Shown here one piece after another: positions 2,772 through 61,712 of a DNA stretch of 64,000 bases. The position numbers and the translations under genes are program-made. The notes under the pieces were generated by a model, which saw only the letters and a list, made by a program, of their open reading frames with translations, was not told where the DNA came from and ran no database searches. Positions within the stretch are counted from its first letter, which is position 1; each line of letters starts with the position of its first letter. Source of the stretch: a candidate division TM6 bacterium GW2011_GWF2_37_49 (GTDB lineage: Bacteria; Babelota; Babeliae; Babelales; RVW-14); contig LBTE01000001.1 in NCBI GenBank assembly GCA_000989955.1, forward strand, positions 206,615 to 270,614, written 5' to 3'.

Positions 2772-3968
2772 ATGGCTATAAAAAATGTGATCATAGGTGC
2801 ATCTGCTGCAGGTATTGCATGTGCAACAAAATTACGTGAGTTGAGTAAAGAGATAGACATTCTTGTTATTGATTCGGAAGAAAAACTTCCATGTAACAGG
2901 TGTCTGTTGTCGGATTTACTGTCTGGTAACAAAACTGAGCAGGAGATTCTTGTCAGAAAGCAAGAAGATTTTAGATTACAAAATATTGATTTAATGCTTG
3001 AAACGAGGGTGAAAGAGATTCTTCCTCAAGAAAATTGTGTAAAAATACATAACGGCCAAAAAATATATTATGATAAGCTCTTTTTGGGAACTGGTAAAAC
3101 TGGCTTTATACCCAATATTTCTGGATCTTCCAAAAAAGGGGCTTTTTCTTTTTATGGTCTATCGGATATAAAGGCGATTCTTAATTTTATTCAAAGTAAT
3201 TCCGTAAAACACATTACTGTCATTGGAGCAGGCCTGACAGGCCTAGAGTGTGCGGCCGCCTTATTAGATCGTGGTTTTGAGGTGGCGCTAGTTGAGCGTA
3301 GCTCCCATGTTTTGCCATATCAGATTGACGTTGAAGGTGCCAAAATAATTCAAGCTTTGATGAAAAAATACAAAATTTCGTTTTATCCTGGTCAGATAGT
3401 TGAAGAGATTAATGGTGACGGACTTGTTAATGAAGTGATACTTTCAGAACAAGGCCCTCTTAAAACTGACATGGTAATTTTTTCGATTGGTGGCAGGCCT
3501 AATATTCAAATCGCTCTTAGGGCAGGGCTTGAGACTTTGCCGCAAGGGATTGTAACTAAGCCAACAATGCAGACTAGCATAGATAATATTTTTGCAGGAG
3601 GCGACAGTTGCGCGGTTCGTGACATTATCTCCGGTGACACTGTTCAAAATTGCTTGTGGACAGAGGCAGCCATGCAGGGCATGGTTGCGGCACATAACAT
3701 GCTTGGCATAAAAAAAGAATATCCAGGGGTGCTTGCGATAACCAGCTCCAATCTATTTGGTACACCAATTGTTTCATGCGGCCAGATGGGTAGACACTCC
3801 GAGACTTATAAGGAAACGGTCAAACGCGGTGACAATTTTTATCAAATGTATTTAACTGATAACAAAACGCTTGTTGGCTTTGCAATGATCGGCAAGACAG
3901 AAAATATTGGCATGTTAAGAAGGGCGTTAATCGACAAAACACCTTTTAATGTTGATAATGTTTCCTAA
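2772..3968 (+). CDS. FAD/NAD(P)-dependent pyridine nucleotide-disulfide family oxidoreductase (NADH oxidase/rubredoxin-reductase-like)
   Basis: Two Rossmann GxGxxG motifs (VIIGASAAGIACA; VIGAGLTGLECAA); ATG immediately follows TAA of upstream gene (coupled). Confidence 0.6.
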   Translation: MAIKNVIIGASAAGIACATKLRELSKEIDILVIDSEEKLPCNRCLLSDLLSGNKTEQEILVRKQEDFRLQNIDLMLETRVKEILPQENCVKIHNGQKIYYDKLFLGTGKTGFIPNISGSSKKGAFSFYGLSDIKAILNFIQSNSVKHITVIGAGLTGLECAAALLDRGFEVALVERSSHVLPYQIDVEGAKIIQALMKKYKISFYPGQIVEEINGDGLVNEVILSEQGPLKTDMVIFSIGGRPNIQIALRAGLETLPQGIVTKPTMQTSIDNIFAGGDSCAVRDIISGDTVQNCLWTEAAMQGMVAAHNMLGIKKEYPGVLAITSSNLFGTPIVSCGQMGRHSETYKETVKRGDNFYQMYLTDNKTLVGFAMIGKTENIGMLRRALIDKTPFNVDNVS

Positions 3969-4039
3969 TCAAATACTATTACTTGATCGTAGATTTGTAG
4001 TTCAATAAAATTTAGAATCGCCGATTCGTCAAATGATTG

Positions 4040-4195
4040 ATTGTTAGTGGCATACATTGACTGTGCTTGTCAATGTATGCGATTGCATGAGGTCTGTAGT
4101 GAAATTGATAAGTTTTTAGATGTGGCCTGCCGGCATTGATTGGATGCAGGCAGGCGAATGATTTTTTAAAAAATTGTAAAAACGCTGTGTGATGT
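4040..4195 (-). repeat. dispersed composite intergenic repeat, copy 1 (full-length, minus orientation)
   Basis: Reverse complement contains tcaatgccggcaggccacatctaaaaacttatcaatttcac plus flanking gcaggcgaatgatttttt and catacattgac palindrome. Confidence 0.7.
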
Positions 4196-12572: not shown

Positions 12573-12869
12573 ACAGCTCCCGAGTTGCCCGTTCGTGGTG
12601 AGTGCTGGCCGATCCTTCGATACGATTTGCTTTACAAATCACTCAGGACGAGCGGCCAGTGTATCGAACCATGCGGGCATAATACTTGTTTCGAATGATA
12701 TTACCACCACATAATCTAAATAATTTTGAGTAAAAGCGCAAATTTAGTAAAAACAATTATCTGGAGCTGTATATAAATACATATTTGTATGTAGGCGCTT
12801 GTAGATCGGCTCATTCAAAGCCGATGTCAGTTTTTGAAGCTTTTGAAAATTTAATTCGATATGCGGCTT

Positions 12870-12925
12870 CTGGTCGGTACAAGCAGGCCGCGGTATAAAA
12901 ATTGTCAATTTCTCTTGAGCCCTGA
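12870..12925 (+). repeat. dispersed intergenic repeat, degenerate partial copy
   Basis: caagcaggccgcggtataaaaattgtcaatttctc aligns to core. Confidence 0.4.
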
Positions 12926-13108
12926 TCTGGCCGCACTTGCGAATGGCGATGGTCGATGTATGTGCCTGAAAATAATAGTTTTGGCGCGGCAGGCTTGTGG
13001 CGTCTTTTCAAATTGAATTAAGTTGATCGTTTGAAGTTTTGTTTTTTTTGTTATACGCTTATTTAATATTTTGTCAGATGTATATTTTTAAAATAAGGTG
13101 TTTTACTC

Positions 13109-13945
13109 ATGAAGCTATTGAAACAATATTTAGCTCTGGTTGTTATTTTTCTTGCAGGTTCGACAAACGCTATGAATTCGGATGAATTGGTATCGCAAGC
13201 TGTTGACATGCAGCCTCAAGAAGTTCAGGCGGCAAAAATTGCAGCGCCAAAACCAGCCGTAGTTAAAAAGTTTGAAAAATTGGTAGAGGCTGCGATGAGA
13301 GCAGATAAAGCATCTGTTAATATGCGAGTTGGCGCTGGTGTACTAAAAGAATTTTTGAAGATATTTAGCCCACTTTTTATTTTATTGATTCATATGTGTG
13401 GGACTAAAAATAGAGACTTTGTAGCGTTGATTATATACTTGCTTACGCTCTATCCTCCATTCACGCTTATTCTGATGTGCAGTTCTTCGTTAATGTGGGA
13501 GTTTGTATTTAATTATATATCCGATAATGACCTATCAACTGTCAGCGACAAATCACTTGTGGCTTTACGAGCTCTTCAACGACATGTTAATTCATTAACG
13601 CCTGAAGAAAAAAAAGAAATCGCTTTGCAGTTCAAAGAAAAATATGCTCATAAATTAAGTGAAAAAATTACAAAAGAAAAAGATGGCAAGGGCCTAGTTA
13701 TTGGACGTAGCGCGATGTCGATATTGACTGGCGTTGGTATGCCTTTAATTTATATTTTTATTATGAGGAAATTTAAATTGAATGAATCGTTGGCAAGAAG
13801 TATTAAAATAAGTGATAAAACGGCCAATGGCTTTATTTATACAATGGCAACGTTGCATGCTCTGGCTGCCGCGTATAATGCATGGTACTCAAATGATTAT
13901 CAAGAAAAATGTGCCCTACAAGAGATTGAAGCGGCTTTGGCATAA
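13109..13945 (+). CDS. hypothetical secreted/membrane protein
   Basis: Signal peptide MKLLKQYLALVVIFLAGSTNA; internal hydrophobic segment; followed by terminator hairpin. Confidence 0.45.
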   Translation: MKLLKQYLALVVIFLAGSTNAMNSDELVSQAVDMQPQEVQAAKIAAPKPAVVKKFEKLVEAAMRADKASVNMRVGAGVLKEFLKIFSPLFILLIHMCGTKNRDFVALIIYLLTLYPPFTLILMCSSSLMWEFVFNYISDNDLSTVSDKSLVALRALQRHVNSLTPEEKKEIALQFKEKYAHKLSEKITKEKDGKGLVIGRSAMSILTGVGMPLIYIFIMRKFKLNESLARSIKISDKTANGFIYTMATLHALAAAYNAWYSNDYQEKCALQEIEAALA

Positions 13946-13973: not shown

Positions 13974-14005
13974 GGCCGGCTTGCGTAAATGTAAGCCGGT
14001 TTTTC
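13974..14005 (+). terminator. rho-independent terminator hairpin
   Basis: ggccggcttgcg-taaatg-taagccgg followed by ttttt, just 3' of CDS 13109..13945. Confidence 0.55.
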
Positions 14006-14287
14006 TTGGTGTGCGCGACATGCGCATTGTTTATAAGGTGAAAGTCCTGAATGGTGAGCGACGACAGTAACCATTAGCTAAACAGCAAGGGTGTACATCG
14101 CGAGATGTAATCTGAAAGAAGCTGTCCCTGGCTCGAGGAACACGAATCTCATAAGGCTAACGATAGTTGGATGAGTTTGCCAAACAAAACAAAATCCGTA
14201 CGCTTGATGCACAGGGCTATTTTAATCTTAATATCGAATGTATATCCCTAAAAATCGCAGTTTTGACTGGTTACAAATTTTAAATTT

Positions 14288-14945: not shown

Positions 14946-15428
14946 ATGAATAAATGTGCGTTTACGCTCATCGAGCTGATGATAGTCGTTGCGATCATCG
15001 CATTTCTTGCAACTGTTTCGGTACCACAATATTTTAAATACCAGGCTAAGGCAAAACAGGCTGAGGTAGCAGCAAACTTGGCTTCGCTGCATACCGCCAT
15101 GCAGGCCTATTTTATAGAACATGGCGAATATTCGACGGTATTAAACGGGGAAGGCGGGATTGGATGGAAACCTGACGGATATTCCGGAGGAGGCAAGGGT
15201 GAAAAATTTTATTACACATACGGGTTCAATTCCCCAGGAGCACAAGAAGGAGTTCATTATTTTACAGGAAAACTTGAAACGCCAAAGGAATCACTGGGAC
15301 AGACATCTGCTGACCAAAATCATTTTTTAGCCGGTGCCGCAGGAAACGTATCTGGCAGCGGAAAATCGGATGTGTGGAAAATAGATGAGCAAAGAAACCT
15401 TCAGCACGAAGTTGACGGGCTAGAATAA
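14946..15428 (+). CDS. type IV pilin / pseudopilin (prepilin N-terminal methylation motif)
   Basis: N-terminus MNKCAFTLIELMIVVAIIAFLATVSVPQY is the classic class III signal; strong RBS aaaagggggag upstream. Confidence 0.75.
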   Translation: MNKCAFTLIELMIVVAIIAFLATVSVPQYFKYQAKAKQAEVAANLASLHTAMQAYFIEHGEYSTVLNGEGGIGWKPDGYSGGGKGEKFYYTYGFNSPGAQEGVHYFTGKLETPKESLGQTSADQNHFLAGAAGNVSGSGKSDVWKIDEQRNLQHEVDGLE

Positions 15429-16167: not shown

Positions 16168-17034
16168 TTATGAAAAGAAAAATCTTATAAAATCTTTATC
16201 GAATAAAAAGTAAAAAGTGGCACCCAGAGCCAAAAATGGACCGAATGGAAGACGAGTTGTCATCTCTTTTCTGAAAATGATTAGATATAATGTCCCGATA
16301 AGCAATCCAGACAATGAACCAATCAACAACGAAAACCACACGCCAAGCGGGCCTAAAAAGCTGCCAATCAATGCAAGCAATTCCATATCTCCAACACCCA
16401 TGCCATCACGTTTGGTTACAAGCTTAAAAATAAGAGCCACAAACCAAAGACTAAAATACCCGATAAAGGCACCAATCAAGCTTGCCTTTATCGAGATAGA
16501 GATAATATTAAAGTAGGCAAACAAAAAACCCAGCGGTACAAGCCACAAAGAAAATAGCTGCGGAATAACCATTGCTTCAAGATCTGATCTAGTAGCAGCT
16601 ATCAATGCGCTGAAAAAAATAAAAAACGCACCCAGCATACATAATCCACGTAAAAAAACTTGATCTGGAATAACTGATGAAAAATTCATAGAATCAACCA
16701 TCAACTGATCTGTCGAGATAAAATAATGAAATGGAGAAAAATACGGCAATAACTTAAAAAACACACAGACAAAAATAAGACCAGAAATCAATTCAATTGC
16801 AGGATATAAAAATAAAATACGATTTTTACAATTTCTGCATTTGCCCATGAGCAAAAGCCAAGATAGCAGGGGAATATTGTCATACCAAAAAATAACATGT
16901 TCACACACAGGGCACTTTGACCGATTTGTAAAAAATGGCTTTCCAAGCGCAAATCTATGAGCAACAACATTTAAAAATGAACCCCAAACTAATCCAAATA
17001 AAAAAATTGCAATCACTATAATTGAAATCTCCAC
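16168..17034 (-). CDS. pilD: prepilin peptidase (A24 family, PilD-like)
   Basis: N-terminal Cys motif CPVCEH...CRNC; polytopic; conserved GxGDxK-like GMGVGDMEL. Confidence 0.7.
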   Translation of the reverse strand: MEISIIVIAIFLFGLVWGSFLNVVAHRFALGKPFFTNRSKCPVCEHVIFWYDNIPLLSWLLLMGKCRNCKNRILFLYPAIELISGLIFVCVFFKLLPYFSPFHYFISTDQLMVDSMNFSSVIPDQVFLRGLCMLGAFFIFFSALIAATRSDLEAMVIPQLFSLWLVPLGFLFAYFNIISISIKASLIGAFIGYFSLWFVALIFKLVTKRDGMGVGDMELLALIGSFLGPLGVWFSLLIGSLSGLLIGTLYLIIFRKEMTTRLPFGPFLALGATFYFLFDKDFIRFFFS

Positions 17035-18497: not shown

Positions 18498-18707
18498 TTA
18501 TTGAAGCATGCCTTCCATACTTTTGATTATATTATTTTTGATCGCGCGCATCAGGCGCTTTCTTCTTTTTTGCGTTGGAGGCTCAAAATAAACTTGACGC
18601 TTCATGTCACGAACGACACCCTCACGCTCAATTTTCTTTTTAAGCTGCTTGAGGCTGCGTTCCAAGCTTCCAGATACCTGAATTTCAATGTTATATGACT
18701 TAGCCAT
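18498..18707 (-). CDS. rpsU: 30S ribosomal protein S21
   Basis: 69 aa basic protein; ...GVVRDMKRQVYFEPPTQKRRKR... matches S21. Confidence 0.7.
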   Translation of the reverse strand: MAKSYNIEIQVSGSLERSLKQLKKKIEREGVVRDMKRQVYFEPPTQKRRKRLMRAIKNNIIKSMEGMLQ

Positions 18708-18979
18708 TTAAATTAACACCGCCTTGAAATACGTTAAATTTGTTTAAAAACAAAAAGATAATATCAAAAGCCCAACATTTGTCAAAGAAAAGTTAAATCA
18801 ATAAACTCTTAACTCGCAAAAATTGACAATCAGACACAATAAATTAATCTTCTCCTAATTTTGAATAAAAATAAAAAAAACACTTCACAAACAATGTTTT
18901 TGTTGTAGAATCTCATGCACCTCTAAAGTCTGTTAATTGTCAATGATAAATAATAAAACCATTACTTACGGAGTTTTAT

Positions 18980-19939
18980 ATGAATAAATACATGAAGCTA
19001 TATTTACCGATTTTTTTTGCATTGCTATCTCTCACGTCTACGGGGAAGGCTTGGATTTTTGAAGCAGTAGTCCCAAGCTTTGATACATTTTATAAACTCG
19101 TAGAAATAACTGAAAATAAAGGTCTCACGTTGTGTTGTTGCGATTTAGATGATACGGTAATATCTTATCCTGACTATATTGGATCGGAAGCATGGTTTTC
19201 AGGCACATATAGCGCATTAAAGGCTGGTGGCGTTATTGATCCTATGCCAATTACATTTTGTACAGCAACAATAGCTCATCAACTTAATATTGATAAAGTG
19301 ATTCCAACTGAACCGAATGTTGTAAGCATTATTAATAGGATGAGAGCAGAATTGCAAATCAAATGCATAGCATTAACGTCAAGAACACACGCCTTATCTG
19401 AAATAACACAAAAACAACTAATAGCTATTGGGCTAACTTTTTGTTGTCCATGGCCAGGAGATGAAAAGCCTCTAAATATGGATAGAATTTGGAAGGCCGT
19501 ATTCAAGCCAAGCGATGGAAGTGTTTATTGTAGTGGAGGCAATAAAGGCGAAACTTTGGTAAGCCTTCTTAAACAAACAAATTGCATGATTGATGGTAAA
19601 AAAATTAACACAATAATCGTTATAGATAATGACCAAAGACATTTAATTAGAATTAAAGACGCCATAGCAAAGCACAATATTCCTGCAAATCTTATGCTAT
19701 TTACATATAAACCACACATACTCAATCAATCGCAAGCTAATCCAATCGCAGAAAAAGTAACAAATTTTTTGGTTGATATGGCTAAGCAATCACAAGATGC
19801 AATAATTAAAGATGCGTATGAAAAAGGAATAATACAAGGAAAAATTCAAGCCATCCGTGAAATATTAGCAACACCTTCCCGCAAAATTAATCACCGTACT
19901 CTATCAACGCCTAGCTTGCCAAACGTACAAGTAAACTAA
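18980..19939 (+). CDS. secreted HAD-superfamily-like hydrolase (DxDxT motif)
   Basis: Signal peptide; CDLDDTV matches HAD motif I. Confidence 0.35.
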   Translation: MNKYMKLYLPIFFALLSLTSTGKAWIFEAVVPSFDTFYKLVEITENKGLTLCCCDLDDTVISYPDYIGSEAWFSGTYSALKAGGVIDPMPITFCTATIAHQLNIDKVIPTEPNVVSIINRMRAELQIKCIALTSRTHALSEITQKQLIAIGLTFCCPWPGDEKPLNMDRIWKAVFKPSDGSVYCSGGNKGETLVSLLKQTNCMIDGKKINTIIVIDNDQRHLIRIKDAIAKHNIPANLMLFTYKPHILNQSQANPIAEKVTNFLVDMAKQSQDAIIKDAYEKGIIQGKIQAIREILATPSRKINHRTLSTPSLPNVQVN

Positions 19940-20082
19940 AATCCGCATATAATGGGCCATACATCAAGTATGCAATTCAAAAAGCACGCATGTATGAGCC
20001 CTGCCAGCAATTTAATAAATTTTTACTATCGGGCTGCAAGCATTGATCAGAAGCGGTCTGGCGAATAAAATTTTGTAAAATA
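19940..20082 (-). repeat. dispersed intergenic repeat, copy (minus orientation)
   Basis: gggccatacatcaagtatgcaattcaaaaagcacg...ctgcaagcattgatcagaagcggtctggcgaataaaattttgtaaaa; aligns to copies at 4040 and 60565. Confidence 0.55.
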
Positions 20083-20361
20083 GGTAACTATTCAGGTGCC
20101 TATCTTATACGAGAAATAAAGGCTTTTTTTAAAAATAGACGTGGTAAATTTCAAGCTGTTGCATATAACTTTTTGTAGCATGATTTTCGCATAATTTTAC
20201 TTAAGAACGCCTGCTAATGAGGGTTTCGGTGTTGTTTTCGTTGATGAAAAAATTAACTGAAATGAAATGTAAATCAGACAGGCGACTCAATCCAAAAAAC
20301 TTAAAAAGTGCTTTAAACAGGGCGTTTTGGTGTTTTGCGGATGGCACCTGAATAGTTACCT
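20082..20361. repeat. 19-bp perfect terminal inverted repeats enclosing 242 bp (MITE-like or regulatory cassette)
   Basis: aggtaactattcaggtgcc at 20082-20100 and its exact reverse complement ggcacctgaatagttacct at 20343-20361. Confidence 0.55.
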
Positions 20362-20523: not shown

Positions 20524-21465
20524 ATGCTGAAGTTCAAGCTATATTTTAACAGAAACAATACATTTTTGGGAATGGTTTTTATGTGTCATAAAATATATAA
20601 ACAGTTTGTTAAGCTGCTTACATTGTTAATTTTTATTGGAGTTACTCCAAATGTTTGTTATTGCGCTGCGACAAAAATAATAGATAGTACGAGCGTTAGC
20701 ACTTTAATGGATAAACAGGAAGATATGGCGGTGCTAAAAAAATATCTTTCAGGTGCACTTATTGAAACAGATGCAGAACGCTTAATTGTACAAGTAGGTA
20801 TTTGTAATATTATAGGGCCTCTTTTTTGGGGATTGATTAAAGAGGATAAGTGTAATATTTACGATGATCATATTTATGATGTATTCATTACCGTGAATCC
20901 AACGATTATATCGCTACAAGATTATTGGTTGCGTTTTGTTGAACACTTACATTGTAACCGTAAATGTTTTATTTTGGCTTTAATTTTTATTGGTAGATTA
21001 ATGGAAATTGATGAAAAATTGTTTTTTAAATTGTTTTCAACTCATTATATTCATAAAACTTTTTTAGCCGCCGTGATGTTTGCATTTAAATGTAATATAG
21101 ATTGTAAAGCAGATTTTCAACATTGTGCAAAGGTTGGAGGAGTGCCTTCTGATCTATTAATGAAATTAGAATTACATTTTTTGCAAATATTAGACGGTAA
21201 ACTTTTTGTATCAGCAGAATATTGGCATGGTTTTATTGATTCTCTGTTTATATTAAATGAACAACAGTATAAAAAAATATGTCCTAATATATTTATAAAG
21301 GAATTAAATAAATCGAATGGCGATGAATTAACTAAAGAGTACTGTGCGGGAATATCATGTTTTCTTCGTATAAGGAACAATCAAATATTGTGTCCTCAAA
21401 AATACACCCTGGAAACAATAGTAGATTTCGATAAAATTAATTTGATCTTAGCGCCATTATTTTAA
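20524..21465 (+). CDS. secreted Pho85/P-type cyclin-box-like protein (paralog 1)
   Basis: Signal-peptide-like N-terminus; HCAKVGGVPSDLLMKLELHFLQILDGKLFVSAEYW closely resembles fungal/plant PCL cyclin box (AWAKVGGIS..ELN.LE..FL.LLDF.L.VS.EEY). Confidence 0.55.
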   Translation: MLKFKLYFNRNNTFLGMVFMCHKIYKQFVKLLTLLIFIGVTPNVCYCAATKIIDSTSVSTLMDKQEDMAVLKKYLSGALIETDAERLIVQVGICNIIGPLFWGLIKEDKCNIYDDHIYDVFITVNPTIISLQDYWLRFVEHLHCNRKCFILALIFIGRLMEIDEKLFFKLFSTHYIHKTFLAAVMFAFKCNIDCKADFQHCAKVGGVPSDLLMKLELHFLQILDGKLFVSAEYWHGFIDSLFILNEQQYKKICPNIFIKELNKSNGDELTKEYCAGISCFLRIRNNQILCPQKYTLETIVDFDKINLILAPLF

Positions 21466-21491: not shown

Positions 21492-22334
21492 ATGTTTTAT
21501 AAAAAAATTAAATTATTTGTAGCTATAGTTTTAATTGGAGCGTCAACAAATGTTTGTCATAGCGCTGCGTTACCAACAACAGAATTGCCAAGCATATCAT
21601 TTGATACTGTTAAATCATTAGTTTTGATGCTGGTTGGCAAAGAATATAAGCGAGTTAACCTAGATAGTGTTCAAGAAGATTTTAAGATATTTTTTGGGAT
21701 TGGTGCAATATCTTCGTTATTAACCCCAGAATATTATTTAAAACGATTAATTACCTATTTACATGCCTGTCCAGAGTGTTTTGTATGTGCTTCAATATAT
21801 ATGCTTAAGATATTTAAAAAAGCTCCCGATTTATGCAATAGCATCTCTTTTTATCGCTTATCCTTGGCTGCATTGGTTATTGCTATTAAATACTTACAAG
21901 ATAACTACTACTCAATGTCTTATTATGCAGGAATTGGAGGAATTGATGTTAATGAGCTTGGCAATCTTGAGTTGCGAGTGTTACAACTTTTAGATTATGA
22001 CATTTCAATATCGCGTGAATATTGGCAAGGATTTACCGATTCTATTTTTAAGCTGTATTCGCTTGAAAATTTGTTTGGTAATACTATTGTGAGAATTCAC
22101 ATAGAAGATGCTAAAAAAAAGCAGGATTATATTGATGGCGTTATTGATTTTGTTTATGTTTTTAATGTAGTACAGCATGACAATCCAAGAAAATATATGT
22201 TTAGTTGCTGTGACGTTGACAAAGTAGGGGTCAATTTGATTATTAGGCCTCTAACTTTTGAAGAGTCCAAAAATATTGCAGATGAAAATGTACGAGCCAA
22301 GATTCTTCAAGAAATGTATGCAGAATTAGAGTGA
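21492..22334 (+). CDS. secreted Pho85/P-type cyclin-box-like protein (paralog 2)
   Basis: Paralogous to 20524..21465 (shared CF[IV]..., YW.GF.DS.F motifs); LSLAALVIAIKYLQDNYYSMSYYAGIGGIDVNELGNLELRVLQLLDYDISISREYW cyclin-box-like. Confidence 0.55.
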   Translation: MFYKKIKLFVAIVLIGASTNVCHSAALPTTELPSISFDTVKSLVLMLVGKEYKRVNLDSVQEDFKIFFGIGAISSLLTPEYYLKRLITYLHACPECFVCASIYMLKIFKKAPDLCNSISFYRLSLAALVIAIKYLQDNYYSMSYYAGIGGIDVNELGNLELRVLQLLDYDISISREYWQGFTDSIFKLYSLENLFGNTIVRIHIEDAKKKQDYIDGVIDFVYVFNVVQHDNPRKYMFSCCDVDKVGVNLIIRPLTFEESKNIADENVRAKILQEMYAELE

Positions 22335-24959: not shown

Positions 24960-25140
24960 ATGTTAACCAAATCCGCGATTACAACGGTTATACATTGACC
25001 ATAGCTCTATAAAACACCATGCCTGTCGGCTTTGTCAGTAATATTGCAAATTTTTAGATGCGGCCTGCTAGCATCGATCTAATCGTGGATTTCATGCAAA
25101 AAAAATGAAAATAAGCAAAAGTGGTAACTCGAAATTTTGA
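24960..25140 (-). repeat. dispersed intergenic repeat copy 3' of mutL
   Basis: ccaaatccgcgattacaacgg...atacattgacc...tttttagatgcggcctgctagcatcgat. Confidence 0.65.
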
Positions 25141-27344: not shown

Positions 27345-27570
27345 TTAGCCAAATCTGCGATTGCAACGACAATACATTCGCTACATCTCTATAAAGTATT
27401 GAGTAAGTGGGCTCTATTAATAAATTAACAAATTTTATAATACGGCCCGATTGCACAGATCAGATCTTGGTTTTCAAGTAAAAAAATAGACAATTTTTTC
27501 AAACGTATCTGAAATCCAGCATCAGATCAATGTCCGTAGGCCGCACCTAAAAATTCATCAACCTGCTGAG
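27345..27570. repeat. dispersed intergenic repeat copies (two partial, opposite orientations)
   Basis: agccaaatctgcgattgcaacgacaatacattcgc (matches 24960 segment) and atcaatgtccgtaggccgcacctaaaaattcatcaacc (core). Confidence 0.55.
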
Positions 27571-27676
27571 AATGCGCAAGCAATCGAGTATTTAGAGGTT
27601 GATGATTGATGTATAACAGTAAACATGATGGTTTTGGCGAGGAGCGCTTGCGTTAATAGATTTAATTTTTTGTACT

Positions 27677-27735: not shown

Positions 27736-28293
27736 ATGTACATGTTTTTTATTATTCCAGCGATGTTTACGGCTTTGGCAGCCTTTTTTAACATGCAAAC
27801 TTCTATTGTGTTGATTGCATCATTTTTTATTATAAAAAAGCTTGTATTTGGGGGTATATTTTTGACTTGTGGTTTGCCAACGTTAGCTGGTGCTGCAACA
27901 TTTGCATTGATTCAAAACGATGCGTCGAACTCGGATAAATATTTTAGCATAGTTTTACGCCTTTTGCTGCCTCTGACTTGCATGCTTTTATTCATCTTTC
28001 ATCCGATTGCGGGTTCGGCATTTTTATATTCATTTTATTGGTTCATTCCAATGATTTTATATTTTGTAAAATCTAAAAATGTTTTTATAGCATCACTGAG
28101 TTCCACATTTGTCGCTCATGCTGTTGGCAGCATATTATATCTTTATTCTACAAATATGGCTGATAGTCAATGGCTAGCATTAATCCCAGTTGTTGCATTT
28201 GAACGATTTGTAGCGGCTTTTGGCATTGCATTGTTTTATGTGACTATTAAAGGCATTGTTGTCTTGTGTGTTAATAAGTATTTACGCAATTAA
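27736..28293 (+). CDS. hypothetical polytopic membrane protein
   Basis: 185 aa, 5-6 hydrophobic helices. Confidence 0.4.
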   Translation: MYMFFIIPAMFTALAAFFNMQTSIVLIASFFIIKKLVFGGIFLTCGLPTLAGAATFALIQNDASNSDKYFSIVLRLLLPLTCMLLFIFHPIAGSAFLYSFYWFIPMILYFVKSKNVFIASLSSTFVAHAVGSILYLYSTNMADSQWLALIPVVAFERFVAAFGIALFYVTIKGIVVLCVNKYLRN

Positions 28294-36179: not shown

Positions 36180-36330
36180 TTCTTCGATTATGATTTTTTG
36201 CAATTTGTCAAAAAAACATTCGCCAGCCTCGTCCCAATCAATGCTGGCAGGCCGTATCTAAAAACTTATCAATTTCACGGCAAGCACGACGCAGCCGCAG
36301 GTTTAGACATACACCACCGATGTATAACCC
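36180..36330 (+). repeat. dispersed intergenic repeat, full-length plus-orientation copy
   Basis: attttttgcaatttgtcaaaaaaacattcgccagcctcg...tcaatgctggcaggccgtatctaaaaacttatcaatttcacggcaagcacg. Confidence 0.7.
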
Positions 36331-36436
36331 TAAAAGTCAATATTTTGGCCATAGGTTGACTTAATGAATTTTTAAAGCTAAATTACACAATGATGATGTA
36401 TTTATATAATCAATGATTAGCTATAAATGAAAAACT

Positions 36437-41153: not shown

Positions 41154-41254
41154 CTAAATCTTTTCAAATTTTTAACTAATTAAATTTATGGCTTATCTAC
41201 AACTAATTACGCCGCTCTAAAAACACGTCCTAATCAATGCTCAAAAATCAACAG

Positions 41255-41400
41255 ACATTTTTTGCAATTTTTCAAAACTTCATTCGCAATTCAGCTCTGA
41301 ATCAATGCCAGCAGGCCGCATCTTAAAATTTATCGATTTATCGCCAGAGCCGACTGGCTCTAAATTAAAAAGGGTCATATCTAATGTATGACCCTTTTTA
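41255..41400 (+). repeat. dispersed intergenic repeat, plus-orientation copy (3' end forms pnp terminator)
   Basis: cattttttgcaatttttcaaaacttcattcgcaattcagctctgaatcaatgccagcaggccgcatcttaaaatttatcgatttatcg. Confidence 0.7.
41370..41399 (-). terminator. rho-independent terminator after pnp
   Basis: aagggtcata-tctaatg-tatgaccctt flanked by A/T runs. Confidence 0.5.
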
Positions 41401-41417
41401 TCAATCATTTGACCATA

Positions 41418-58855: not shown

Positions 58856-58903
58856 ACAGCTATTATAAAGGCTTTAAATCAGATAACAAGATGAAATTTT
58901 TAA

Positions 58904-59011
58904 GCCTGGGTCCACGCTTTCGCGAGGACGACGGAATGATACATTGTCATTTCATCGAAAAACCAATCCAGTACCCACTTTGTACAACCGTCATTCCCGA
59001 CTTGATCGGGA
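58904..59011 (+). repeat. structured palindromic element, copy A (gtccacgc-tttc-gcgaggac ... tcccga-cttga-tcggga)
   Basis: Shares 5' 30 nt with copies at 60414 and 63979; internal imperfect long-range inverted arms gacgacggaatga / tcattcccgac. Confidence 0.6.
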
Positions 59012-59112
59012 ATCCAGACAAAACATTCACCCCACAAACTAGATATGCACCATTTTTAGTAGCTGCTTGAAACACATAAACATAAAACTGCGTCAAATTC
59101 GAGAAAAATATT

Positions 59113-60375: not shown

Positions 60376-60413
60376 ATCGACTAAACTCCGCATATTTGTG
60401 GTATGCAATCTAA

Positions 60414-60549
60414 GCCTGGGTCCCCGCTTCCGCGGGGACGACGTGATGTAAGCGCGTGAGTTATGACACCGACTCGATAACTTAAACCTGGCGCAATGAT
60501 AATTTAATTAACGTGTGAATGTTGAGTCGTCATCCCCTTGAAAAAGGGG
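60414..60549 (+). repeat. structured palindromic element, copy B (gtccccgc-ttcc-gcggggac ... cccctt-gaaa-aagggg)
   Basis: Perfect 8-bp-stem palindrome at 60420-60439; long-range arms ggggacgacg / cgtcatcccc; second 6-bp hairpin at 60534-60549. Confidence 0.6.
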
Positions 60550-60564
60550 ATCCATCCCATGCGC

Positions 60565-60720
60565 CAAAACGCCCATATTCTGGGCCATACATCAACACCG
60601 GCAATCAAAACACACGACAGCATCGGCGCTAACAAGAAAATGACAAATTTTTAGGTGCCGCGTACCGCACTCGATTGGGTCGCAGCAGGCGAATGACTTT
60701 TTTGGAAACTGCAAAAAACG
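60565..60720 (-). repeat. dispersed intergenic repeat, degenerate copy
   Basis: ctgggccatacatcaacaccggcaatcaaaacacacg...ttttaggtgccgcgtaccgcactcgattgggtcgcagcaggcgaatgacttttttgg. Confidence 0.55.
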
Positions 60721-60740
60721 GGTGTGTGTTTGTAGAAGAA

Positions 60741-60797: not shown

Positions 60798-61712
60798 CTA
60801 TTTCGGATCTTCACCAAAAAGTGTGTTCGGATTTTCATCTAATATACTTAAATCAGGATCAGTTTCTTCCGTCAACGCTGTCTCTGGCACAGGTGTTGTA
60901 GTTTTTGAAAGTGGTTGTTGTAATAGTTTTGTTAAATCCGCTGCTCGCGCTTTTCTTGCAGTCTCTTCTTCCGTCAACGCTGTAGATATTTTCAATAAGT
61001 ATGACTGTATGTTCGAAAACACATCAATTATTAATTTTTTCAATGCCTTACTTATGTCCTTCGATTTGTTGACGTAATATTTAAGCAATTCAACAAGCAA
61101 TTTCGCGCGATCATGGTTTTCTTCTTGTTTTGCCTGAGCAATTAGCACTGCCGAGCCGATAATCAATGGATCAAGATGCTCAAAATCAGACCAGCTTATG
61201 TTATATGTGCTCGCAAAATTGTCACTCTTAAACTTATTAAATATTAATGTATCCGCACCCGAATCGCCCGGGCTACTCAATACCTTTTTATAAATACCTT
61301 GAATAACATCATTGTTAGTATGAATCACGTTTTCATGCTTTAAGCACAGCCAAAACCAAGCTTTTTGCGCGGCCATGAACGCTTTGATGTTCATTTGCGC
61401 GGCATGCCTGAAAATGGAAATGTTTGCTATAATCTTTCGCTTGCCTTCTTCATTTAACGTGTCTTTTCTCCACAATTCGCCCAAAGCCTTGACGTTATTT
61501 AACAAATTCTCGATTACAGGCTCACCATCACCATCATTACGTACGTCTTTAATCATCTGATACATCATCTTCTGATTCATGCAATATTCTAATTGCAGAC
61601 GTACTTCATTTATCTCAACTTCGACGCGTTTTTTTAATTCATCACCAAAACACGACTGCGAGGCCAAAACGCCCGCCAGCAGCACAAATGTTATGTTTTT
61701 AATTATTTGCAT
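60798..61712 (-). CDS. hypothetical secreted protein
   Basis: Signal peptide MQIIKNITFVLLAGVLASQSCFG; no known motifs. Confidence 0.45.
   Translation of the reverse strand: MQIIKNITFVLLAGVLASQSCFGDELKKRVEVEINEVRLQLEYCMNQKMMYQMIKDVRNDGDGEPVIENLLNNVKALGELWRKDTLNEEGKRKIIANISIFRHAAQMNIKAFMAAQKAWFWLCLKHENVIHTNNDVIQGIYKKVLSSPGDSGADTLIFNKFKSDNFASTYNISWSDFEHLDPLIIGSAVLIAQAKQEENHDRAKLLVELLKYYVNKSKDISKALKKLIIDVFSNIQSYLLKISTALTEEETARKARAADLTKLLQQPLSKTTTPVPETALTEETDPDLSILDENPNTLFGEDPK

What the first reader, a model, noticed from the sequence alone, without database searches (positions are those of the whole stretch)
36180..36330. Composite ~100-150 bp intergenic repeat family with at least nine dispersed copies in 64 kb
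Every long intergenic gap in this window contains the same element in one or the other orientation.
Copies lie at 4040-4195(-), 12870-12925(+, partial), 19940-20082(-), 24960-25140(-), 27345-27570, 36180-36330(+), 41255-41400(+) and 60565-60720(-).
The shared core is TCAATGCYRGCAGGCCGYATCTAAAAAYTTATCAATTTCAC.
It is flanked on one side by ATTTTTTGCAATTT…CATTCGCC.GCCTG and on the other by an …ATACATTGAC… palindrome.
Copies are never inside confirmed CDS and frequently abut gene 3' ends, where one copy provides the pnp terminator hairpin.
This looks like a REP/MITE-like genome-wide repeat that could shape transcription termination or mRNA stability, or serve as a recombination substrate.
Basis: seen in the sequence. 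Interest (0 to 1): 0.6.

Follow-up and report, generated by a model that had tools for sequence, protein, structure and literature searches.

The report
Dispersed 160-bp repeat in TM6 bacterium
A real, previously undescribed family of ~160-bp non-coding repeats sits behind genes in the genome of an uncultivated TM6 (Dependentiae) bacterium; it looks like the remains of a small mobile element that spread only in this lineage, though it lacks the usual hallmarks of such elements and keeps its length oddly exactly.

Summary
The repeat family is real. The window holds nine full copies (~157-165 bp) and one 3'-terminal fragment. Three more copies lie in the 12 kb flanking the window, one on an unrelated metagenome contig, and one at the orthologous site of a close relative. 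The host is candidate division TM6 bacterium GW2011_GWF2_37_49, from groundwater.

Copies are 40-73% identical yet align without a single internal gap. All are intergenic, in both orientations, mostly just after a stop codon.

The pnp-rph site is filled here and in the relative with 89% PNPase identity. It is empty (15-38 nt) in five relatives with 86-67% identity. About 80 kb from three of those relatives holds no copy. This supports a lineage-specific insertion and expansion.

- no terminal inverted repeats and no target-site duplications (not a classic MITE);
- no conserved palindrome (not REP);
- no consensus RNA structure on either strand, no conserved reading frame, no Rfam, plasmid or phage match.

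Only one of 13 copies, the pnp copy, carries a terminator-like hairpin with a T-run.

Best reading: relics of a non-autonomous mobile element without inverted ends, mobiliser unknown. Gapless length and slower change in conserved blocks hint at constraint. Interest is moderate.

The parts
36186..36350 (+). Full copy c36k, the finding's reference copy. It lies between the NeuB-like gene (ends 36130) and the PadR-like gene (starts 36437), in the same direction as both.
   Evidence: nhmmer E = 1.9e-35; alignment A4; gene families
41250..41414 (+). Full copy c41k, antisense to pnp. Its 3' end lies 3 nt from the pnp stop codon. On the pnp strand it supplies a terminator-like hairpin, GGGTCATACATTAGATATGACCC followed by TTTTT. 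The whole insertion relative to empty sites spans about 41209-41417.
   Evidence: empty versus filled site
4027..4191 (-). Full copy c4k, between two convergent genes (ends at 3968 and 4196). It contains a perfect 12-bp hairpin, GCATACATTGAC...GTCAATGTATGC.
   Evidence: (I1)
60562..60726 (-). Full copy c60k (subfamily with GTGCGGTACGCGGCA). It lies just downstream of a terminator-like hairpin of gene 60798..61712 and is followed by a module of a second repeat family.
12822..12986 (+). Full copy c12k in a divergent intergenic region. Its 5' T-run directly follows the hairpin at 12805-12825.
19935..20098 (-). Full copy c20k. Its 3' end reaches the stop codon of the convergent gene 18980..19939.
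24965..25129 (-). Full copy c25k (subfamily with a GAAATCCA left part), 52 nt after the mutL stop codon and antisense to mutL.
27347..27511 (-). Copy c27kA, the left member of a head-to-head pair. Its 3' end lies 26 nt from the stop codon of the Band_7 gene.
27475..27639 (+). Copy c27kB, the right member of the head-to-head pair. The 5' ends of the two copies overlap at about 27487-27501.
14205..14266 (+). Fragment holding only the 3' third of the element (HMM positions 94-147). It abuts a truncated group II intron fragment and lies 22 nt from the stop codon of the convergent ferritin-like gene.

Best explanation
The copies are relics of a small, non-coding, non-autonomous mobile DNA element of about 157-180 bp.

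Shown:
- It multiplied in the recent ancestry of TM6 bacterium GW2011_GWF2_37_49 and has since been inherited vertically.
- It has landed, or survived, in the DNA just after stop codons and terminators, in either orientation.
- It now makes up about 2% of the sequence and about a fifth of the intergenic DNA.
- It is asymmetric, with neither inverted ends nor a palindromic body.

Inferred:
- It was moved in trans by an enzyme encoded elsewhere in the genome or since lost. That enzyme is presumably not a classic DDE transposase, which recognises inverted ends.
- Several subfamilies suggest more than one source copy.
- Resident copies are mostly passive. Individual copies have local effects: the pnp copy places a terminator-like hairpin and about 220 nt between pnp and rph, which are 15-38 nt apart in relatives.
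- Conserved blocks and the exact length seem to be under some constraint.
For: Family and spread:
- Nine full copies and one fragment in 64 kb.
- Three more copies in the 12 kb beyond the window ends, one on an unrelated contig, and an ortholog in the 89% relative.

Lineage-specific insertion:
- The pnp-rph gap is 264-271 nt where filled, against 15-38 nt in relatives at 86, 78, 77, 73 and 67% PNPase identity.
- The 39 nt next to rph align with the whole empty-site spacer, so about 209-225 nt were inserted directly after the pnp stop codon.
- No copy in 29 kb of the 78% relative, 28.7 kb of the 73% relative or 22 kb of the 67% relative. No copy in the pnp loci of 80 other genomes.

Mobile-element character:
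- Subfamilies are visible in the identity matrix.
- No conserved reading frame. No consensus RNA structure on either strand. No Rfam match.
- Placement next to gene 3' ends and terminators. Pneumococcal BOX, RUP and SPRITE repeats show the same placement, which was read there as a mark of parasitic elements (PMC3049150).
Against: - No terminal inverted repeats and no target-site duplication.
- No transposase, reverse transcriptase or RAYT-type gene in the window or its flanks. The mobilisation step is therefore wholly inferred.
- Copies differ by about 45% on average yet show no internal indel in 14 sequences. In the same intergenic region the non-element spacer gained 3 indels in 112 nt between orthologs.
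- Substitutions between the orthologous copies avoid family-conserved columns: 6% against 25%, p = 0.019.
- Copies are richer in G+C (39.7%) than other intergenic DNA (33.3%).

The last three points fit selection on resident copies better than pure decay.
Confidence: 0.6

Rival explanations
1. The element is, or has become, a host cis-acting DNA module. A host protein binds its fixed array of sequence blocks, for example a nucleoid-associated protein, IHF or gyrase, as reported for E. coli BIMEs. Selection then preserves the blocks and their spacing, whatever their origin. This overlaps with the best explanation as domestication after spread.
For: - Gapless alignment at 40-73% identity, with ATGTAT at a fixed offset in 12 of 13 copies.
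- Seventeen invariant and 16 nearly invariant columns among variable stretches.
- Ortholog substitutions are concentrated in variable columns, p = 0.019. The element is 83% conserved against 70.5% for the neighbouring spacer, with 0 against 3 indels.
- G+C-rich blocks such as GCAGGCCGC persist in an A+T-rich genome.
- Orientation relative to neighbouring genes does not matter, as expected for a DNA-level site.
- In about half the copies the 3' block fits the IHF consensus WATCAANNNNTTR (by inspection; the consensus is from memory).
Against: - Close relatives do without it entirely, so it is not essential.
- The selection test rests on a single orthologous pair.
- There is no 10-11 bp periodicity of A/T dinucleotides, as a DNA-wrapping site would be expected to show.
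- One copy has been two-thirds deleted.
- No binding protein is identified.
Confidence: 0.25
2. The element is a multi-copy small RNA gene or cis-regulatory RNA, and its function depends on a conserved fold.
For: - Fixed length, conserved blocks and free-standing intergenic position in either orientation.
- Some copies fold much better than shuffled sequence: c4k z about -6.4, c41k z about -4 to -5.
Against: - RNAalifold predicts no pairs at all on either strand, with 9 and with 14 copies.
- A register-based search finds only T-run with A-run pairings.
- The two best candidate helices are 53% and 62% paired and barely beat the controls.
- Most copies fold no better than shuffles.
- No Rfam match at E up to 10.
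- No conserved sigma-70-type promoter in the element, although canonical promoters are seen at the tRNA and nusG genes.
Confidence: 0.05
3. The element is a retro-mobilised, SINE-like passenger of a group II intron or other reverse transcriptase. Only the 3' end needs to be recognised, and 5'-truncated or chimeric copies arise.
For: - A fragment with only the 3' third of the element is fused to the truncated 5' part of a group II intron. That intron begins with GTGCG 10 nt after a terminator hairpin.
- The element is asymmetric and lacks inverted ends.
- All copies share a sharp 3' boundary.
- Both the intron and the elements sit next to terminators or gene 3' ends.
Against: - Full copies are not 5'-truncated. 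Their left parts are subfamily variants of equal length.
- The copies give no hit to any group II intron model.
- The Rfam alignment over the shared segment is poor, with non-canonical pairs and low posterior probability. The junction is explained more simply by a deletion between an intron and a neighbouring element.
- No reverse transcriptase gene is in view.
Confidence: 0.07
4. The copies result from a local segmental duplication, encode a small protein, or are an artefact of low-complexity A+T-rich sequence.
For: - A gene caller placed a 42-aa ORF inside copy c41k.
- The sequence is A+T-rich with T and A runs.
Against: - Flanks of the copies share no similarity.
- Copies occur on other contigs.
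- Stop codons interrupt every frame in most copies, and conservation shows no three-base periodicity.
- E-values reach 1e-35, and the core pattern has zero hits in shuffled sequence.
Confidence: 0.02

Closest known systems
SPRITE, with BOX and RUP: small interspersed repeats of Streptococcus pneumoniae (Croucher et al. 2011, PMC3049150)
   Same: - Non-coding repeat of about 150 bp, restricted to one species and its nearest relative.
- Enriched close to CDS 3' ends.
- No matching IS element and no demonstrable target-site duplication. SPRITE has only a trivial AAAA/TTTT 'inverted repeat'.
- Proliferated in the past and is now mostly fixed.
- Different repeat families cluster and abut one another. 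Here a second small repeat adjoins two of the copies.
   Different: - SPRITE is defined by an 18-bp duplex followed by a U-rich tract. Only 1 of 13 copies here has a hairpin with a T-run, and no helix is conserved.
- There is no sequence similarity.
- The host phylum is unrelated.
Bacterial MITEs, such as Correia/NEMIS, ERIC and Coxiella QMITE1/2 (review PMC10969869)
   Same: - Under 500 bp, non-coding, many dispersed intergenic copies, with subfamilies.
- Density similar to Correia elements (about one per 6-8 kb; the Correia figure is from memory).
- Individual copies can add terminator-like hairpins.
   Different: MITEs are defined by terminal inverted repeats of about 4-30 bp, flanking direct repeats, and transcripts that fold into stable stem-loops. 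None of these is found here.
REP / BIME elements and REPINs, with RAYT transposases
   Same: Extragenic, downstream of genes, in both orientations, sometimes in head-to-head pairs (as at 27347-27639). Known in E. coli to bind host proteins such as IHF and gyrase (from memory).
   Different: REPs are G+C-rich imperfect palindromes of 20-40 nt. This element is four times longer and has no conserved palindrome. No RAYT gene is in view.
IS200/IS605-derived palindrome-associated transposable elements (PATEs)
   Same: Small, with no inverted ends and no target duplication. This is the expected form of elements moved as single strands by HUH enzymes.
   Different: They depend on conserved subterminal hairpins and a fixed target tetranucleotide (from memory). 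No hairpin is conserved in register here, and no constant flank motif appears beyond a T-run.

Membership tests
MITE | Short (<500 bp), non-coding, multiple dispersed copies | tested here: met
   Copies of 157-165 bp. Twelve full copies in about 76 kb of this genome. No open frame is conserved.
MITE | Terminal inverted repeats (~4-30 bp) | tested here: not met
   Local alignment of the first 45 nt against the reverse complement of the last 45 nt scores no better than shuffles in any of 14 copies or in the consensus (z from -1.3 to +1.1).
MITE | Flanking direct repeats (target-site duplication) | tested here: not met
   A scan of all boundary offsets and k = 2-9 finds nothing beyond chance 2-mers. 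At the one site with an empty-site comparison there is only a degenerate AATTAGAGTAA / AATTAGTTGTAGATAA resemblance. Old copies may have lost such repeats.
MITE | Transcripts fold into stable stem-loops | tested here: not met
   Only c4k and c41k fold clearly better than shuffles. The other copies have z from about +0.6 to -3.3, and the consensus z = -0.2 (forward) and -1.7 (reverse).
MITE | Ends match a resident autonomous IS | not testable with these tools
   The rest of the genome could not be scanned. No transposase lies in the window or its flanks.
REP / BIME | G+C-rich imperfect palindrome of 20-40 nt as the repeated unit | tested here: not met
   No helix is conserved in register. The best G+C-rich candidate (columns 38-44 with 58-64) is paired in 53% of cells.
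SPRITE-like terminator element | Long 3' duplex followed by a U-rich tract in the family consensus | tested here: not met
   A hairpin followed by a T-run occurs in 1 of 13 copies, c41k only.
Structured RNA family (Rfam or new) | Match to a curated model, or a consensus structure supported by covariation | tested here: not met
   No Rfam hit at gathering score or at E up to 10. RNAalifold predicts 0 pairs on both strands.
Group II intron derivative | Homology to intron domains (GUGYG 5' end, D5/D6, D1-D4 models) | tested here: not met
   Only the region 14094-14261 matches RF02001, at 54 bits. The repeat copies do not match. The shared 60 nt is a juxtaposed element fragment.
IS200/IS605-type PATE | Conserved subterminal hairpins and a constant target motif 5' of the left end | tested here: inconclusive
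   No G+C hairpin is conserved. The 5' T-run/A-run helix is 62% paired, no better than the slid controls. The left flank shows only a T-run and a weak AAACA motif. There are too few copies to settle this.
Small protein gene | An open frame kept across copies, with codon-like conservation | tested here: not met
   Every frame has stop codons in most copies. The information profile shows no three-base periodicity.

The most novel reading that the evidence does not exclude
The family is not decaying junk. It would be a fixed-length sequence module of about 157 bp, spread by a mechanism that needs neither inverted ends nor hairpins, such as a single-strand (HUH-type) or reverse-transcriptase route. 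The host would then retain it as a binding platform that marks the boundaries of transcription units in this TM6 lineage. That would be a TIR-less, non-palindromic class of bacterial dispersed element under purifying selection.
Probability: 0.2. Interest if true: 0.65.

Novelty: new variant of a known kind. Interest (0 to 1): 0.42.

Why it matters
Small dispersed repeats are well studied in a few cultivated bacteria but have not been reported for Dependentiae (TM6). Two full-text literature searches found nothing.

- This family accounts for about a fifth of the intergenic DNA in an otherwise compact genome.
- It separates genes that are adjacent in relatives, as at pnp and rph.
- It breaks the usual rules used to find such elements. 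Having neither inverted ends nor a palindrome, it would be missed by MITE and REP finders.
- Its gapless length conservation at about 55% identity is unusual. If that reflects selection, these elements do something for the cell.
- On the practical side, the family is a marker for this lineage.

Tried and rejected
- **Quoted 41-mer core.** Only 2 hits at up to 3 mismatches, so I replaced it with a profile search.
- **Public collections.** A degenerate 32-nt core pattern found nothing in 185,579 species genomes and one contig in JGI metagenomes. A 24-nt core pattern found nothing in viral contigs. blastn against plasmids and phages found nothing.
- **Consensus RNA structure.** None on either strand. 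Two hand-picked helices were weak.
- **Coding potential.** Rejected.
- **Inverted ends and target duplications.** None.
- **Longer composite element.** Flanks are unrelated, except that two copies share a neighbouring second repeat.
- **Promoter or terminator content.** Scan counts equal those of shuffles, and no conserved promoter lies in the element. A terminator-like hairpin occurs in one copy only.
- **DNA-wrapping or bending signal.** No 10-11 bp periodicity.
- **Group II intron link.** The apparent homology of the element's 3' third to RF02001 is a forced alignment across a junction.
- **Walking along the contig.** Blocked, because only window proteins can be looked up. One look-up failed.
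- **L086 tail.** The bases after pnp in L086 first looked like an element end. They are in fact the start of rph, so that site is empty.

Full report
**Observation**

A profile search seeded with the reported copy converges on nine copies in the window, with E-values of 1e-21 to 1e-35, plus a weaker partial hit at 14205-14258. A repeat finder recovers the same places, as does BLAST.

- The copies lie at 36186-36350(+), 41250-41414(+), 4027-4191(-), 60562-60726(-), 12822-12986(+), 19935-20098(-), 24965-25129(-), 27347-27511(-) and 27475-27639(+).
- The last two are joined head to head.
It is still the best-conserved block.
- All copies lie between ORFs. One reaches a stop codon.
- Seven of the eight gaps of at least 300 nt hold a full or partial copy. 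The remaining gap appears, from a by-eye reading, to hold a small unlisted gene.
- Elements make up 1,380 nt of the window, about 2%, and about a fifth of its intergenic DNA.

**Host and distribution**

The window comes from candidate division TM6 (Dependentiae) bacterium GW2011_GWF2_37_49, a groundwater metagenome genome. Its proteins are identical to NCBI entries of that name, and identical contigs exist in two ENA assemblies.

- DNA beyond the window ends holds three more copies: two in 9.9 kb past the 3' end and one in 2.1 kb past the 5' end. That gives 12 full copies in about 76 kb, roughly one per 6.3 kb.
- A degenerate core pattern found nothing in one genome per species of GTDB.
- The same pattern found one full copy at an unrelated locus on a 248-kb JGI contig.
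- No copy occurs in the pnp loci of 80 other genomes, including a Babeliales genome.
- There is no match in viral contigs, plasmids or phages.

**Evidence that it is inserted DNA**

PNPase orthologs gave a graded series of relatives.

| PNPase identity | Locus | pnp-rph site |
|---|---|---|
| 100% (window) | window | 264 nt, element present |
| 89% | L085 | 271 nt, element present, same orientation |
| 86% | L094 | 38 nt, empty |
| 78% | L086 | empty; contig ends 16 nt into rph |
| 77% | L093 | 15 nt, empty |
| 73% | L087 | 20 nt, empty |
| 67% | L088 | 30 nt, empty |

- The 39 nt next to rph in the filled site align with the whole spacer of the 86% relative. About 209-225 nt were therefore inserted directly after the pnp stop codon. 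That is the element plus about 50 nt on its 5' side.
- Further DNA from the relatives holds no copy: 29 kb at 78%, 28.7 kb at 73% and 22 kb at 67%. Their intergenic gaps are short.
- One gain in the common ancestor of this genome and the 89% relative is the parsimonious reading.

**Anatomy**

Fourteen copies align over about 157-165 nt without any internal gap.

- ATGTAT sits at the same offset in 12 of 13 copies.
- Pairwise identity among paralogs is 40-73%, about 55% on average. The orthologous pair is 83% identical.
- Conservation is blocky: TTTTTGCAATTTTT, ATTCGCC, ATC.ATGC, GCAGGCCGCATCTAAAAATTTATCAATTT, ATGTAT and TTTGGC, separated by variable stretches.
- At least three subfamilies are visible.
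- Flanks are unrelated between copies.

**What it is not**

- *Coding sequence.* Every frame carries stop codons in most copies.
- *Known RNA.* There is no Rfam match at gathering score or at E up to 10.
- *Structured RNA.* RNAalifold predicts no pairs on either strand. A register-based count finds only T-run with A-run pairings. The two best helices are 53% and 62% paired, barely above controls. Most copies fold no better than shuffles.
- *Classic MITE.* There are no terminal inverted repeats and no target-site duplications. Both define the class (PMC10969869).
- *REP-like.* There is no conserved palindrome.
- *Terminator cassette.* Only c41k has a hairpin followed by a T-run.
- *Carrier of a conserved promoter.* Promoter and terminator scan counts are no higher than in shuffles.
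- *DNA-bending or wrapping site.* There is no helical periodicity of A/T dinucleotides.

**Placement**

Most copies lie just after a stop codon.

- In seven sites the element's 3' end faces the end of a convergent gene at 3-67 nt: c41k, c4k, c20k, c25k, c27kA, L084 3758-3906 and L003.
- In three the 5' end follows the end of a co-directional gene: c36k, c60k and L084 9600-9747.
- In c12k and c60k the 5' T-run follows a terminator-like hairpin.
- Orientation relative to transcription is mixed, about 6 antisense to 4 sense.

This is the pattern reported for pneumococcal BOX, RUP and SPRITE repeats. There it was read as tolerance of parasitic insertions downstream of genes (PMC3049150).

**Signs of constraint**

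- Between the orthologous copies, 27 differences fall at 25%, 19% and 6% of low-, mid- and high-conservation columns (Mann-Whitney p = 0.019).
- The element is 83% identical between orthologs, against 70.5% for the adjacent non-element spacer. It has no indels, against three in the spacer.
- At the spacer's ratio of indels to substitutions, paralogs differing at about 70 positions should carry several indels each. None is seen.
- Copies are richer in G+C than other intergenic DNA, 39.7% against 33.3%.

These points rest on one orthologous pair and on an assumed neutral indel rate. They are suggestive, not decisive. One copy has nonetheless been two-thirds deleted.

**Mechanism, as far as it can be taken**

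- *Shown:* a dispersed, lineage-restricted, non-coding family, and an insertion at pnp-rph relative to five relatives.
- *Inferred:* spread by transposition from more than one source copy, catalysed in trans by an enzyme not seen here. No transposase, RAYT or reverse transcriptase is in the window or its flanks.
- The lack of inverted ends argues against a DDE transposase. A single-strand (HUH) or reverse-transcriptase route is possible but untested.
- *Local consequence at pnp:* a terminator-like hairpin 25 nt after the stop codon, and about 220 extra nt now separating pnp from rph.

**Comparison and novelty**

The closest analogues are the pneumococcal small interspersed repeats, SPRITE above all. 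They share small size, lineage restriction, closeness to gene 3' ends, no partner IS and no demonstrable duplication. This family lacks the duplex and U-tract that define SPRITE.

It is a new family in a phylum where none has been described. Its architecture is atypical: asymmetric, without inverted ends and of exact length. I rate it a new variant of a known kind, of moderate interest.

Noticed in passing
window 14011-14200 (+), with the terminator hairpin at 13974-14001: Truncated 5' part of a group II intron. It starts with GTGCG 10 nt after an intrinsic-terminator hairpin downstream of gene 13109..13945. Rfam RF02001 (group-II-D1D4-3) scores 54 bits, full model length, at 14094-14261. There is no D5/D6 and no intron ORF. 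The intron part ends where a fragment of the 160-bp repeat begins. Insertion just after a terminator recalls class C introns (from memory).
   Followed up: partly
window 58895-59030 (-), 60407-60556 (-); L084 8489-8560 and 9786-9890: A second small repeat family with at least four copies within about 7 kb. It has a hairpin module, GGAT(C/T)CCC...GGG(G/A)ATGAC, and a module GTCGTCC(T/C)CGCG(A/G)AAGCG(G/T)GGACCCAGGCTTA containing a perfect 8-bp hairpin. GGGGATGACG can also pair with CGTCGTCCCC, giving mutually exclusive helices. Three of the copies lie upstream of genes, and two adjoin copies of the main repeat. There is no Rfam match.
   Followed up: partly
window 27347-27639: Two copies of the main repeat are joined head to head at their 5' ends, giving an inverted repeat of about 290 bp between the Band_7 gene and gene 27736..28293. 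The arms are only 49% identical, so this is not a recent fold-back duplication.
   Followed up: partly
window 20524-21465 and 21492-22334 (+): Two adjacent genes encode proteins with eukaryote-type cyclin domains (Pfam PF08613, E = 2e-13 and 5e-18). This fits a bacterium that lives inside eukaryotic hosts.
   Followed up: no
window 41280-41408 (-); L001 9739-9867: A public gene call of 42 aa lies wholly inside repeat copy c41k. The frame is not conserved in other copies, so it is probably spurious.
   Followed up: yes
window 43943 and 38819: The ENA assemblies of the same organism (L001 and L002) are otherwise identical to the window. They carry extra segments of 15 nt (near the rpoC 3' end) and 18 nt. 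Both lengths are multiples of three.
   Followed up: no
window about 18540-18708 (-): A small gene resembling ribosomal protein S21, read by eye on the minus strand, lies in the one long 'intergenic' gap without a repeat copy. It falls below the 100-aa ORF listing.
   Followed up: no
window 14946-15428 (+) and 16168-17034 (-): A type IV pilin gene (N_methyl and PilA motifs, with a weak sub-threshold ComP_DUS hit) and a prepilin peptidase gene. No link to the repeats was found.
   Followed up: no
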